From a phage, in assembly GCA_022520065.1 (NCBI GenBank), contig GCA_022520065.1_3942.1: 64,000 bases of DNA. One strand, 5' to 3'. Position 1 is the stretch's first letter; each line of letters opens with the position of its first letter. Below the pieces are notes generated by a model that had not been told where the DNA came from, did not search any database, and saw only the letters and a list, made by a program, of their open reading frames with translations. A program made the translations under genes and the position numbers. Below, piece by piece: positions 14,387-24,934 of the stretch.

Positions 14387-15739
14387 ATGTGGAATCCAAT
14401 TGTTAATGTAGATATTACATTGAACACCGCAGGAACTACAAGAGAAGGTTTTGGTTTGCCACTATTCTTAGCTTCAACAGATAACTTTGAAGAAAGAGTG
14501 CGTGGTTATACTTCCTTAACTGAAGTTGCTGAAGATTTCGATGAGAATACTGCTGCATATAAGGCTGCTAAACAACTTTGGAGTCAGACTCCTAAAGTAA
14601 CTCAGCTTTATATTGGTAGACGCGCTATGCAGTACACTGTATCAATTCCTGATGAGGTTACTGAGAGCACGGACTACTCAATTACTGTAGCTGTCGGTGG
14701 GGGAATGTCACAACCATTCCAGTACACCTCACAAGGTAAAGATACTGCCGAGAATGTATTACAACAGTTTAAAACACAGATTGAAGCTGACCAATCAATT
14801 AAAGATAAAGTTTCAGTCAATGTTACTGGTAGCAACGGTTCTGCCACAATGGTCATCTCCAAAGCTGGTGACAATGATTTCGTGAAGGTAACCACTACAG
14901 CACAAACTGTGTCTATTGCAAGCACAACTGCTGATACAGCGTCAACTGCTCTGGCAGCTATTGAAGCTTATTCTACCGACTGGTATTTCATTGCAGCAGA
15001 AGACAGAACTCAACAGTTTGTCTTAGCAATGGCTTCTGAGATTCAGGCTCGTAAGAAAATCTTCTTCACAGCTAACTCTGATGTAGCAGCACTACAAGGT
15101 ACAGAATTAAACAGTGCAAATGATGTTCCAGCACAGCTTGCTAAGAGTATGTATACTCGCACAGTTTGCTTGTGGCATCACACAGCGGCAGAAGATTATC
15201 CAGAGATGGCATATATTGCTTATGGTGCTCCATACGATGCAGGGTCAATTGCTTGGGGTAATGCTCAGTTGACTGGTGTAGCTGCTTCTTTACAGCCAGC
15301 TAATAAGAGACCTCTGACAAGCATTCAGAAGTCAGCTTTAGATGTACGTCACTGTAACTTTATCGACCTTGATGGTGGTGTTCCAGTGGTTCGTAGAGGG
15401 ATTACTTCTGGTGGGGAATGGATTGATATCGTCCGTGGTGTTGACTGGTTAGAATCAGACCTGAAAACTTCTCTGAGAGACTTGCTAATTAACCAGAAGG
15501 GTGGTAAGATTACTTATGATGATACTGGTATTACCCGTATTCGTCAAGTCATTGAAACCTCTCTACAAAGAGCAGTCAACAGAAACTTCCTGTCATCTTA
15601 CACAGTTAATGTTCCTAAAGCCTCTCAAGTTGCTTTGGCAGACAAGAAAGCTCGTATCCTGAAAGATGTTACCTTCGCAGGTATCTTAGCAGGGGCTATC
15701 TTGGATGTTGACTTGAAAGGTACAGTGGCTTACGAATAA
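14387..15739 (+). CDS. tail sheath protein (probable)
   Basis: 450 aa, immediately precedes a 148-aa tube-like gene, chaperone pair and tape measure: canonical contractile-tail order. Confidence 0.6.
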   Translation: MWNPIVNVDITLNTAGTTREGFGLPLFLASTDNFEERVRGYTSLTEVAEDFDENTAAYKAAKQLWSQTPKVTQLYIGRRAMQYTVSIPDEVTESTDYSITVAVGGGMSQPFQYTSQGKDTAENVLQQFKTQIEADQSIKDKVSVNVTGSNGSATMVISKAGDNDFVKVTTTAQTVSIASTTADTASTALAAIEAYSTDWYFIAAEDRTQQFVLAMASEIQARKKIFFTANSDVAALQGTELNSANDVPAQLAKSMYTRTVCLWHHTAAEDYPEMAYIAYGAPYDAGSIAWGNAQLTGVAASLQPANKRPLTSIQKSALDVRHCNFIDLDGGVPVVRRGITSGGEWIDIVRGVDWLESDLKTSLRDLLINQKGGKITYDDTGITRIRQVIETSLQRAVNRNFLSSYTVNVPKASQVALADKKARILKDVTFAGILAGAILDVDLKGTVAYE

Positions 15740-15754
15740 TAGAGGTAAATTGGA

Positions 15755-16201
15755 ATGGCTATGTATCAGCAATATTCCCCTAAAGACGTTGTATGTAGCT
15801 GGAATGGTATTGCCATTGAAGGCTTTGCCCCAGACTCATTTTTACGTCTACAGAGAACATCACCACTTATCACACCAGTTGTAGGTGCAGGTGGTCAGGT
15901 TGCTCTGACAAGAAATGCAGACAAGACAGGTACTATTGAGATTGAGCTAATGCAGACTTCTCTCTCTAACCAGATGCTTTCTGCAATTCAAGCTAAACAA
16001 GACAACATGGAACTTGAAGAAGATATCTCTTCTAACTTCGTAATCTACGACCCATCAGGCTCTGTTCTGGCAACTGGTATTAATGCTTGGTTGCAGGAAT
16101 TACCACAGATTGAACTTGGGCGTGACCAGAACTCTAAAACTTGGATTTTTGGTTGTGAGAAGCTAGACTACACTTCTACAATTCCAGCGTCAAGTGTTTA
16201 A
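15755..16201 (+). CDS. tail tube protein (probable)
   Basis: 148 aa after sheath, followed by strong terminator. Confidence 0.6.
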   Translation: MAMYQQYSPKDVVCSWNGIAIEGFAPDSFLRLQRTSPLITPVVGAGGQVALTRNADKTGTIEIELMQTSLSNQMLSAIQAKQDNMELEEDISSNFVIYDPSGSVLATGINAWLQELPQIELGRDQNSKTWIFGCEKLDYTSTIPASSV

Positions 16202-16213
16202 TAAATCCTATAA

Positions 16214-16246
16214 GGGGGAGACTTTAAAAGGTCTTCCCCTTTTTTG
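16214..16246 (+). terminator. Rho-independent terminator after tail tube gene
   Basis: 9-bp stem gggggagac/gtcttcccc with 8-nt loop, followed by ttttttt. Confidence 0.65.
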
Positions 16247-16274
16247 TTTCTTTTAAAAGTATTAAGGAATCACA

Positions 16275-16673
16275 ATGAAAACAGAATCTAAAGTAATTAA
16301 TGGTAAGAAAGTAAATATCGTTCTGCTTGGGGCAAGAGATGGGATTAAGATGTCTATGAAGCTGGGTAAAATTGTTGTTCCAACATTTGCACAGATGCTA
16401 TCAAGTCTGACTGATAAAGATAAGAAAGAAGCTCCAATGGTTCCATTTAAAGACCTTGTTGAAGCTTGTTTTGACAGAATTGAAGAAATTAACCTTGAAG
16501 AAATGGCTACCCTGTTATTTCAAGGGGCAACTGTTGATGACTTCCCACTCAATATTGATACATACTTCCAAGCAAACTACGGTGAGTTTATTGATTACTT
16601 AGCATTTGCGCTGGAGGCAAACTTCGGAAGTTTTTTCGAAGCAAGCATTTTCAAAAGCCTAACTTCTCAGTAA
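16275..16673 (+). CDS. tail assembly chaperone (G-like)
   Basis: 132 aa before tape measure; slippery heptamer T TTT TTC at 16631-16637 near its 3' end. Confidence 0.6.
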   Translation: MKTESKVINGKKVNIVLLGARDGIKMSMKLGKIVVPTFAQMLSSLTDKDKKEAPMVPFKDLVEACFDRIEEINLEEMATLLFQGATVDDFPLNIDTYFQANYGEFIDYLAFALEANFGSFFEASIFKSLTSQ

Positions 16674-16675
16674 AC

Positions 16676-16914
16676 ATGGGTAATACTCTACAGACACCAC
16701 TAACTGATGCTGCTGTAGAGGCAACCTATGAAGAAGCAGACGAGATGAAATTTGTGCTTGCTATTTATGGTATGGAAGGGTGTAAAGAAACACTTGACCA
16801 ACTCTTTGCTATGACATTCTCTGATTTATTATCATTGAGACAATTTCTTGAAATTCAGAGGTCGTATAAAGAGGAAATTGCTTACAACGAACTTAGAAGA
16901 GCAGGAAAAATGTA

Positions 16915-16915
<1 letters not shown>
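16676..16915 (+). CDS. tail assembly chaperone frameshift extension (T-like)
   Basis: In -1 frame relative to 16275 ORF; that frame is open from the slippery site into this ORF. Confidence 0.5.

Positions 16916-24934
<8,019 letters not shown>

What the first reader, a model, noticed from the sequence alone, without database searches (positions are those of the whole stretch)
16631..16637. Programmed -1 frameshift site joining the two tail assembly chaperone ORFs
The heptamer T TTT TTC lies in X XXY YYZ register near the 3' end of the 16275-16673 ORF. After a -1 slip the reading frame is open through the zero-frame stop (16671-16673) and continues in frame into ORF 16676-16915, which ends with a TAATG overlap onto the tape measure gene. 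This matches the conserved G/GT chaperone frameshift seen upstream of tape measure genes in most long-tailed phages, so it is expected biology, but the track lists two separate ORFs.
Basis: partly seen in the sequence, partly recalled or inferred. Interest (0 to 1): 0.4.

Follow-up and report, generated by a model that had tools for sequence, protein, structure and literature searches.

The report
Tail chaperone -1 frameshift site
This is the usual "slippery" site at which some ribosomes slip back one base to make a longer tail-assembly chaperone in a Felix O1-like phage; it is real and strongly conserved, but it is expected biology that is already annotated in sister phages.

Summary
T TTT TTC (16631-16637) lies in X_XXY_YYZ register in the tail assembly chaperone gene 16275-16673. 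The -1 frame is open from 16595 to 16915 and ends in TAATG on the tape measure gene.

The window is Escherichia phage VpaE1_ev035 (Felixounavirus). In 61 related loci:
- T_TTT_TT[C/T] is in register in 60, down to about 25-30% protein identity and up to 65% local GC.
- The -1 frame always runs to a long tape-measure-like ORF.
- Several lineages have no start codon for the downstream part.

Other evidence points the same way:
- Synonymous-site diversity in the chaperone frame drops from 0.228 to 0.018 exactly at the heptamer.
- The nominal ATG at 16676 has no Shine-Dalgarno sequence.
- A fusion protein built from a slip at this heptamer in Citrobacter phage Mordin is identical to GenBank ALA06885.1. 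Genome announcements for the Felix O1-like phages Moogle and Mijalis report a frameshift in this chaperone.

The finding is therefore correct but already known. Only the annotation of this record, and of the Felixounavirus records checked, lacks it.

The window has no downstream stimulatory structure. An SD-like GGAGG 14 nt upstream is a possible stimulator. No experimental proof was found for this group.

The parts
16275..16673 (+). Zero-frame tail assembly chaperone gene ('G'-like), 132 aa
   Evidence: ORF and translation. Pfam PF21822 Phage_TAC_15 at 71.6 bits (cut-off 22) and phrog_1613/3840 'tail assembly chaperone'. SD duplex -6.1 kcal/mol, typical for this genome.
16613..16617 (+). [quoted passage not shown]
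   Evidence: It meets the criterion of Sharma et al. 2014 (GAGG/GGAG 6-17 nt upstream). It is present in 34 of 39 distinct related contexts against an 11% background. This is confounded by Leu-Glu-Ala coding and shared ancestry, and the element is absent in Kolesnikvirus, P778, L038 and L051.
16631..16637 (+). Slippery heptamer T_TTT_TTC (P-site UUU, A-site UUC slipping to UUU, UUU)
   Evidence: In register. Conserved in 60 of 61 related loci, including relatives at 57-65% GC. It is invariant in an 18-lineage alignment (columns 25-30). U_UU.U_UU.C belongs to the class of most efficient E. coli -1 motifs (H_HH.U_UU.Y) and is used by IS elements.
16631..16673 (+). Dual-coding overlap (zero-frame tail of G plus the start of the -1 frame extension)
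   Evidence: Third-position diversity in the G frame is 0.018 here against 0.228 upstream, across 28 distinct Felixounavirus, Mooglevirus and Suspvirus sequences. Only one variable column (16640) lies between 16623 and 16670.
16637..16915 (+). -1 frame 'T' segment (92 codons plus the stop at 16913-16915), read after the slip. The predicted GT fusion is residues 1-121 of G plus these 92 aa, 213 aa in all.
   Evidence: Translation. Diversity by codon position in the T frame is 0.054/0.025/0.145, the pattern of purifying selection. phrog_4963 at E = 2.8e-55. The T profile is homologous to the -1 frame peptides of the L041/48/51/58 lineage (hhalign E = 1.9e-5).
16676..16678 (+). Nominal ATG of the separately annotated 79-aa ORF; probably not a real independent start
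   Evidence: The SD/anti-SD duplex is +0.7 kcal/mol against a median of -6.0 for 61 ORFs; only 3% are as weak. The start codon is not conserved: ATA in L021, none in Kolesnikvirus or Wc4-1, displaced in Mooglevirus, TTG chosen by the annotators in P778.
16915..19143 (+). Tape measure protein gene, overlapping the T stop by one base (TAATG)
   Evidence: ORF. phrog_4036 at E = 0 and Pfam PF20155 TMP_3.

Best explanation
A programmed -1 ribosomal frameshift of the lambda G/GT (P2 E/E+E') type.

Most ribosomes translate 16275-16673 and release the 132-aa chaperone. A minority behave differently. With tRNA-Phe(GAA) on UUU (16632-34) in the P site and on UUC (16635-37) in the A site, both tRNAs slip back one base onto UUU-UUU (16631-36). 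Decoding then continues with CGA (16637-39) in the -1 frame, through the zero-frame stop, to the TAA at 16913-15. The product is a 213-aa fusion (...ANFGSFF-RSKHFQKPNFSVNMGNTLQ...).

By analogy with lambda gpG/gpGT, the common N-terminal domain binds the tape measure protein and the -1 encoded C-terminal domain recruits the tube protein. A fixed low GT:G ratio would be set by the slip frequency.

Shown here: the register, the open frame, deep conservation of the heptamer and of the -1 ORF, dual-coding constraint beginning at the heptamer, and the lack of an independent start.

Inferred: that slippage occurs on the ribosome, its frequency, any help from the upstream GGAGG pairing with 16S rRNA, and the assembly role of GT.
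For: (1) Anatomy: the heptamer is in register and the -1 frame is open from 16595 to 16915, ending in TAATG on the tape measure gene. The +1 frame is closed.

(2) Outlier status: 94 open -1 codons against a median of 6.5 and a next best of 34 for the 62 in-register heptamers in the window.

(3) Conservation: 8 of 8 distinct annotated Ounavirinae-like records have T_TTT_TTC (Mordin, BPS15Q2, CHB7, Pistou, SPARTY, SE5, P778, Wc4-1). So do 52 of 53 IMG/VR loci, counting T_TTT_TTT as well, including loci at 25-30% identity and 57-65% GC. There the codon-usage expectation for T_TTT given xFF is 0.02-0.11.

(4) Localising the slip: in P778 a -1 frame TAA lies 3 nt upstream of the heptamer and the G stop 30 nt downstream of it. 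This confines the slip to about 40 nt containing the heptamer.

(5) Product lengths: GT length is constant (210-239 aa) while G varies from 126 to 192 aa. The -1 stop abuts a long tape-measure-like ORF in all 18 representative lineages.

(6) Synonymous-site diversity collapses from 0.228 to 0.018 at the heptamer.

(7) There is no SD for the ATG at 16676, and the start codon is absent or displaced in other lineages.

(8) The Mordin fusion built from this slip site is identical to GenBank ALA06885.1, AKU44019.1 and YP_009177317.1. The joined CDS is in KT363872.2, and Felix O1-like genome announcements report the chaperone frameshift.

(9) U_UU.U_UU.C is a proven efficient -1 motif in E. coli. 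P2 E/E+E' uses TTTTTTG and has no hairpin.

(10) The phage itself encodes tRNA-Phe(GAA).
Against: I found no experimental detection of the fusion protein for any Felix O1-like phage.

There is no stimulatory structure downstream in the window: the 60 nt after the heptamer fold at -3.4 kcal/mol, z = +1.12. Efficiency may therefore be low and cannot be estimated here.

The FF dipeptide is itself conserved at the protein level, so part of the T-run conservation is amino-acid constraint.

In Felixounavirus an ATG lies 2 nt after the G stop, so some free T made by termination-reinitiation cannot be excluded.

Ribosomal and transcriptional slippage give the same protein and cannot be separated from sequence alone.

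Homology of the -1 peptides of the high-GC group to the Ounavirinae T domain is not significant (hhalign E = 0.13).
Confidence: 0.88

Rival explanations
1. There is no recoding. The 79-aa ORF 16676-16915 is translated on its own, by termination-reinitiation from the ATG 2 nt after the G stop, giving separate G and T proteins as the database records annotate.
For: An ATG at 16676 follows the TAA at 16671-73 by 2 nt, a geometry compatible with translational coupling. phrog_4963 matches the 79-aa ORF end to end, and the Felixounavirus and Suspvirus records checked annotate it as a separate CDS.
Against: The ATG has no SD: +0.7 against a median of -6.0 kcal/mol. The start codon is not conserved: ATA in L021, none in Kolesnikvirus or Wc4-1, displaced in Mooglevirus. 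The -1 ORF and the heptamer are kept throughout. The -1 frame upstream of the ATG (16631-16675) is under dual-coding constraint, which independent initiation would not require. The match to the separate ORF reflects annotation habit, not evidence.
Confidence: 0.06
2. The same GT protein is made, but by transcriptional slippage. RNA polymerase adds an extra U at the T6 run, giving a subpopulation of mRNAs with U7 that are read in what corresponds to the -1 frame.
For: The site is a homopolymeric T6 run, and T7 in five lineages. A weak hairpin (16611-16627) followed by the T run was flagged as terminator-like. From my own knowledge, not checked here, stem-loop-stimulated slippage has been described for some IS elements.
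Against: From my own knowledge, efficient slippage by bacterial RNA polymerase generally needs runs of about 8-9 or more. Here the run is 6, and in 13 of the 18 representative lineages it is held at exactly 6. The run is always in the ribosomal X_XXY_YYZ register (xxT TTT TTY), never the equally long TTT TTT flanked by non-T, although both encode FF. The upstream hairpin has no covariation support: 75.9% of cells paired against 76.6% in shuffles, and sliding the partners by +1 does as well.
Confidence: 0.05
3. The heptamer is a chance by-product of a conserved Ser-Phe-Phe motif, and the downstream ORF is a non-functional remnant.
For: SFF is conserved at the protein level. Phe has only two codons, so T-rich sequence is partly forced.
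Against: The wobble choices needed (NNT, then TTT) have an expected joint frequency of 0.02-0.30 per lineage, yet occur in all 18 representative lineages. The T frame shows the pattern of purifying selection (0.054/0.025/0.145 by codon position). T-domain profiles are homologous between lineages (E = 1.9e-5).
Confidence: 0.01

Closest known systems
Tape-measure chaperone frameshift annotated in Mooglevirus (Citrobacter phages Moogle, Michonne, Mordin, Mijalis; Ounavirinae)
   Same: These are orthologous genes (G is 75% identical). The AGTTTTTTCGA site is the same, at the same codon position, and the gene order is the same. The fusion predicted from this heptamer equals the deposited proteins ALA06885.1 and YP_009177317.1. 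The frameshift is stated in the genome announcements PMC4319497 and PMC5543628.
   Different: In the window's genus (Felixounavirus) the zero-frame tail is 3 codons shorter and an ATG follows the stop, so annotators call two separate genes. The window's 213-aa fusion is absent from the 15-billion-protein collection. The Mooglevirus annotation is itself by analogy, not by experiment.
Phage P2 E / E+E' (-1 frameshift at TTTTTTG; Christie et al. 2002, cited in PMC3091744)
   Same: It is a contractile-tailed phage with its chaperone pair next to the tape measure gene. The slippery site is a T6-run heptamer, there is no downstream hairpin, and the fusion shares the N terminus.
   Different: The last base is G rather than C. 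The proteins are smaller (91 and 142 aa against 132 and 213 aa). No sequence-family link was detected: Pfam gives only PF21822 for G and nothing for T.
Phage lambda gpG / gpGT (Levin et al. 1993; Xu, Hendrix & Duda 2004, 2013, 2014)
   Same: It is the founding case of the class. A -1 slip near the 3' end of G extends it into T, the product ratio is crucial for tail assembly, and neither product is in virions (review PMC5009743). The genes lie between the major tail gene and the tape measure gene.
   Different: From my own knowledge, lambda uses G_GGA_AAG and is a siphovirus. Here the heptamer is U_UUU_UUC in a myovirus with a sheath gene. Function in this phage is inferred only.
E. coli dnaX and IS911/IS3-type -1 frameshift signals with an upstream SD-like stimulator
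   Same: There is an SD-like GGAGG within the experimentally stimulatory 6-17 nt interval upstream of a homopolymeric heptamer. U_UU.U_UU.C is among the heptamers used by IS1 and IS3 family elements.
   Different: dnaX and IS911/IS3 also have a downstream stem-loop or pseudoknot (for IS911/IS3; for dnaX, from my own knowledge). None is predicted here. The SD-like element is not universal in the family and its effect is untested.

Membership tests
G/GT-type tail assembly chaperone with programmed -1 frameshift (Xu, Hendrix & Duda 2004 class) | The gene pair lies between the major tail (tube) gene and the tape measure gene, on the same strand | tested here: met
   The order is tube 15755-16201, G 16275-16673, T 16676-16915, TMP 16915-19143.
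G/GT-type tail assembly chaperone with programmed -1 frameshift (Xu, Hendrix & Duda 2004 class) | The downstream ORF is in the -1 frame relative to the upstream ORF, and its open frame overlaps the 3' end of the upstream ORF | tested here: met
   The -1 frame is open from 16595 to 16915, a 79-nt overlap with G. The +1 frame is closed.
G/GT-type tail assembly chaperone with programmed -1 frameshift (Xu, Hendrix & Duda 2004 class) | A slippery heptamer X_XXY_YYZ lies in the zero-frame register inside the overlap | tested here: met
   T_TTT_TTC at 16631-16637, with codons starting at 16632 and 16635. It is a motif of proven efficiency in E. coli.
G/GT-type tail assembly chaperone with programmed -1 frameshift (Xu, Hendrix & Duda 2004 class) | The slip site and the -1 ORF are conserved in relatives, beyond what the amino-acid sequence requires | tested here: met
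   60 of 61 loci keep the heptamer and all keep the -1 ORF. The per-lineage expectation is 0.02-0.30. Synonymous diversity falls from 0.228 to 0.018 at the heptamer.
G/GT-type tail assembly chaperone with programmed -1 frameshift (Xu, Hendrix & Duda 2004 class) | The upstream product belongs to a tail assembly chaperone protein family | tested here: met
   Pfam PF21822 Phage_TAC_15 at 71.6 bits (cut-off 22), and phrog_1613 at E = 7.5e-49. No solved structure is detectable by sequence. The fold was not modelled.
G/GT-type tail assembly chaperone with programmed -1 frameshift (Xu, Hendrix & Duda 2004 class) | Two products (short, and long sharing the N terminus) are made in a fixed ratio; both are needed for tail assembly and both are absent from virions | not testable with these tools
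   This needs proteomics, reporter assays and genetics. No such data were found for Felix O1-like phages.
SD-stimulated -1 frameshift signal (dnaX / IS911 type) | An SD-like sequence 6-17 nt upstream of the motif | tested here: met
   [quoted passage not shown] It is present in 34 of 39 contexts against an 11% background, though confounded by coding constraint.
SD-stimulated -1 frameshift signal (dnaX / IS911 type) | A downstream stem-loop or pseudoknot 5-9 nt after the motif | tested here: not met
   The 60 nt downstream fold at -3.4 kcal/mol, z = +1.12, and 184 of 200 shuffles fold at least as well. The nearest hairpin starts 48 nt downstream.
Transcriptional slippage site | A long homopolymer run (about 8-9 or more), independent of register, optionally with an upstream stem-loop | tested here: not met
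   The run is T6 and is always in ribosomal register. The upstream hairpin shows no covariation. The threshold length is from my own knowledge.
P2 GpE / E+E' protein family | Sequence membership in the P2 E family | tested here: not met
   The Pfam scan of G returned only PF21822. The T peptides returned no family at E <= 1, apart from two insignificant hits.

The most novel reading that the evidence does not exclude
The whole Phage_TAC_15 chaperone family, from Felix O1-like coliphages to uncultivated phages of 65% GC at about 25% identity, may share one unusually rigid recoding cassette. It consists of an SD-like GAGG/GGAG 12-15 nt upstream, then U_UUU_UUY embedded in the conserved NFxSFF motif that ends the G domain, with no conserved downstream structure.

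If so, frameshift efficiency would be set by rRNA-mRNA pairing, and perhaps by the nascent FF peptide, rather than by an RNA fold. That contrasts with the usual picture, in which G/GT slip sites vary freely between phages.
Probability: 0.3. Interest if true: 0.3.

Novelty: already known. Interest (0 to 1): 0.15.

Why it matters
The main value is for annotation. This record (LR699048.1), and every Felixounavirus, Suspvirus and Kolesnikvirus record I inspected, list two separate ORFs or only the first one. They omit the roughly 213-aa fusion, which is very probably the essential product. In LR699048.1 the whole tail module is also mislabelled.

For phage engineering, as in therapy and biocontrol uses of Felix O1-like phages, synonymous recoding or insertions around 16613-16675 would be expected to damage tail assembly.

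The deep conservation of one heptamer across a whole chaperone family gives a clean natural test set for studying U_UUU_UUY slippage with and without an upstream SD-like element. This refines a well-known phenomenon. It does not add a new one.

Tried and rejected
Downstream stimulatory structure:
- Folding 16638-16720 and 16638-16697 gave nothing above shuffles (z = -0.72 and +1.12).
- Hairpins starting 1-4 nt after the heptamer in some relatives (L041, L048, L052) are not significant and not conserved.

Upstream terminator-like hairpin at 16611-16627: rejected, because there is no covariation in 18 lineages.

Pfam family for the T domain: none found, even at E <= 1.

Solved structure by sequence for GT: none.

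Homology of the -1 peptides of the high-GC group to the Ounavirinae T domain: not significant (hhalign E = 0.13).

Literature search for experimental evidence in Felix O1-like phages: only genome-announcement statements were found.

Exact look-up of the window's fusion protein: not in the collection.

Not attempted:
- Structure prediction of GT.
- The heavy protein-database searches, which I judged unnecessary.

One literature search failed on a term that was too short.

Full report
**What is there**

The window is 100% identical over the queried stretch to Escherichia phage VpaE1_ev035 (LR699048.1; Felixounavirus, Ounavirinae). The region is a contractile-tail module:
- sheath, 14387-15739 (phrog_205);
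- tube, 15755-16201 (phrog_280);
- a strong intrinsic terminator, 16212-16241;
- a 132-aa tail assembly chaperone, 16275-16673 (Pfam PF21822 Phage_TAC_15 at 71.6 bits against a cut-off of 22; phrog_1613);
- a 79-aa ORF, 16676-16915 (phrog_4963 'tail assembly chaperone');
- a 742-aa tape measure protein, 16915-19143 (phrog_4036, PF20155).

**Check of the observation**

The sequence reads GGA AGT TTT TTC GAA, with zero-frame codons starting at 16632 and 16635. T(16631) TTT TTC is therefore exactly X_XXY_YYZ.

The -1 frame is open from 16595 to 16915. It runs through the zero-frame TAA (16671-73), takes in ORF 16676-16915 in frame, and ends TAATG on the tape measure start. The +1 frame closes after 10 nt.

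The site is an outlier within the window. Among 62 in-register X_XXY_YYZ heptamers in ORFs of at least 100 aa, the open -1 stretch after the heptamer has a median of 6.5 codons and a next-best value of 34. This site has 94. It is the only one whose -1 frame extends substantially past the zero-frame stop. TTTTTTC is also depleted in the window: 10 copies against 26.7 +/- 5.0 expected.

**Comparative evidence**

I retrieved annotated relatives from six Ounavirinae-like lineages:
- Mooglevirus: Mordin;
- Felixounavirus: BPS15Q2;
- Suspvirus: CHB7;
- Kolesnikvirus: Pistou, SPARTY, SE5;
- Yersinia phage P778;
- Pectobacterium phage Wc4-1.

I also retrieved 53 IMG/VR loci found with a profile of the chaperone. 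The two peptide patterns used for that scan lie upstream of the heptamer and do not include it.

All eight annotated relatives carry AGTTTTTTCGA in register, with the -1 frame open to the tape measure gene. Of the 53 IMG/VR loci, 52 carry T_TTT_TTC or T_TTT_TTT in register. Their -1 frame is open 116-275 nt beyond the G stop. The one exception (L059) has C_CTT_TTT_A, a T5 run with a U_UUU tetramer, at the homologous NFGDLF position.

Conservation extends to relatives with only 25-30% identity in G and 57-65% local GC. In those, the codon-usage expectation of T_TTT given x-Phe-Phe is 0.02-0.11. Across the 18 representative lineages it ranges from 0.02 to 0.30.

The conserved G-domain motif (A/E)F(A/S)L(E/R)xNFxSFF ends at the heptamer. 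The zero-frame tails diverge completely after it.

G length varies from 126 to 192 aa, but the predicted fusion stays at 210-239 aa. The -1 stop abuts a long tape-measure-like ORF in every lineage.

**Where the slip must occur**

In P778 a -1 frame TAA lies 3 nt upstream of the heptamer, and the G stop is 30 nt downstream of it. In CHB7 the -1 frame opens 9 nt upstream. The only conserved slippery motif in the shared interval is this heptamer.

In an alignment of 28 distinct Felixounavirus, Mooglevirus and Suspvirus sequences, third-position diversity in the G frame is 0.228 upstream of the heptamer and 0.018 from 16631 to 16670. Variable columns occur up to 16622, and then only one (16640) before the stop. 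That is the signature of dual coding starting at the heptamer. Downstream, diversity by codon position in the T frame (0.054/0.025/0.145) shows purifying selection.

**Independent initiation is unlikely**

The ATG at 16676 has no Shine-Dalgarno complementarity. Its duplex energy is +0.7 kcal/mol against a median of -6.0 for 61 ORFs, and only 3% are as weak.

The start codon is not conserved:
- One Felixounavirus-like contig has ATA (L021).
- Mooglevirus has the ATG displaced.
- Annotators of P778 chose a TTG.
- Kolesnikvirus and Wc4-1 have no start codon at all for the conserved part. Their records annotate either nothing or a 37-aa fragment there.

Yet the -1 peptides are conserved in length (85-105 aa) and share a motif such as (I/V)Yxxxx(C/N)KE(T/S)LxxL. 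The Ounavirinae-like T profile matches that of the L041/48/51/58 lineage at hhalign E = 1.9e-5. The match to the high-GC group is not significant (E = 0.13).

**Mechanism**

U_UU.U_UU.C belongs to the class of heptamers that shift most efficiently in E. coli (H_HH.U_UU.Y). It shifts at more than 0.1% even without stimulators, is under-represented in E. coli genes, and is used by IS1 and IS3 family elements (Sharma et al. 2014, PMC4066793).

tRNA-Phe(GAA) is the relevant decoder. From my own knowledge it is the only Phe decoder in E. coli, and the phage also encodes a copy at 4216-4291. It can re-pair perfectly from UUU-UUC to UUU-UUU.

No downstream stimulator is predicted in the window. The 60 nt after the heptamer fold at -3.4 kcal/mol, z = +1.12, and the nearest hairpin begins 48 nt downstream.

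[quoted passage not shown] That is inside the 6-17 nt interval defined as stimulatory by Sharma et al.. Such a motif is present in 34 of 39 distinct related contexts against 11% of background positions. It includes lineages where the amino acids differ (AAGGAG and GGGAG in L041, L048 and L058). It is absent in Kolesnikvirus, P778, L038 and L051, and the count is confounded by Leu-Glu-Ala coding and shared descent. I treat it as a candidate stimulator only.

A weak terminator-like hairpin just 5' of the T run has no covariation support. Transcriptional slippage would give the same protein and cannot be excluded from sequence. It is disfavoured for two reasons. The run is short (T6). And it is always in the ribosomal register xxT TTT TTY rather than the equally long TTT TTT flanked by non-T.

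**Comparison with what is known**

This is the conserved G/GT-type chaperone frameshift: lambda G/GT in the review PMC5009743, and P2 E/E+E' at TTTTTTG without a hairpin in PMC3091744.

It is already recognised in this very gene family. Citrobacter phage Mordin (Mooglevirus; G is 75% identical) carries a joined CDS. The fusion I built from a slip at T_TTT_TTC is residue-for-residue identical to ALA06885.1, AKU44019.1 and YP_009177317.1. Moogle has an equivalent 212-aa entry. The Moogle and Mijalis genome announcements state that the tape measure chaperone has a translational frameshift.

All the Felixounavirus, Suspvirus and Kolesnikvirus records I inspected annotate two separate CDS or only the first. 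The window's own 213-aa fusion is absent from the protein collection.

I found no experimental demonstration for any Felix O1-like phage.

**Verdict**

The biology is ordinary and already known for orthologues. The practical outcome is an annotation correction.

A modest extra is the unusually deep conservation of one heptamer, with a frequent upstream SD-like element, across the whole Phage_TAC_15 family.

Confidence that a -1 ribosomal frameshift at 16631-16637 produces a 213-aa GT fusion is about 0.88. Interest is 0.15.

Noticed in passing
window 14387-19143 (LR699048.1 40620-45376): The public record's product names for this tail module are wrong. The sheath is called 'Ad1 adapter protein', the tube 'Ne1 neck protein', the chaperone 'Hc1 head closure protein', and the tape measure 'Tail sheath protein'.
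   Followed up: partly
window 16212-16251: A strong intrinsic terminator (13-bp stem with 6 GC pairs, then TTTTTGTTTCT) lies between the tube gene and the chaperone gene. It is annotated as a terminator in wV8 and Mordin. It would lower transcription of the chaperone and tape measure genes relative to sheath and tube.
   Followed up: partly
window 69-5216: There is a cluster of 26 tRNA genes. It includes tRNA-Phe(GAA) at 4216-4291, tRNA-Ser(GCU) at 5044-5136 and tRNA-Arg(ACG) at 2966-3041. These decode the codons at and around the slip site: AGU, UUU/UUC, and the first -1 codon CGA.
   Followed up: no
L021 1899-1910 (IMGVR_UViG_3300045988_004167): A Felixounavirus-like contig has ATA where the window has the ATG of the separately annotated 79-aa ORF. 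The heptamer and the -1 ORF are intact.
   Followed up: partly
L059 1539-1568 (IMGVR_UViG_3300035050_000006, 61% GC): This is the only relative without T_TTT_TTY. At the homologous NFGDLF position it reads GAC CTT TTT ACC, a T5 run with a U_UUU tetramer in the A-site register, and the -1 frame is still open to the tape-measure-like ORF. A C_CCT_TTC heptamer lies 70 nt upstream, but a slip there would truncate the conserved G domain.
   Followed up: partly
L052 1903-1939; L041 1859-1880; L048 1862-1890: Some distant relatives have a hairpin starting 1-4 nt after the heptamer. L052 has a 15-bp GC-rich stem (MFE of the whole 60-nt fold -32 kcal/mol); L041 and L048 have 8-9 bp stems. None is significant against shuffles and none is shared across the family.
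   Followed up: partly
window 16686-16720: An 8-bp perfect stem (CUCUACAG...CUGUAGAG) lies inside the T segment, 48 nt downstream of the slip site. That is too far for a classical stimulator, and its relevance is unknown.
   Followed up: no
window 19143-21261: The genes downstream of the tape measure encode a Dit-like protein (PF21821), a homologue of the Pam3 gp18 baseplate plug (PF22479) and a baseplate hub (phrog_196). The baseplate therefore resembles the simple cyanophage Pam3 type.
   Followed up: no
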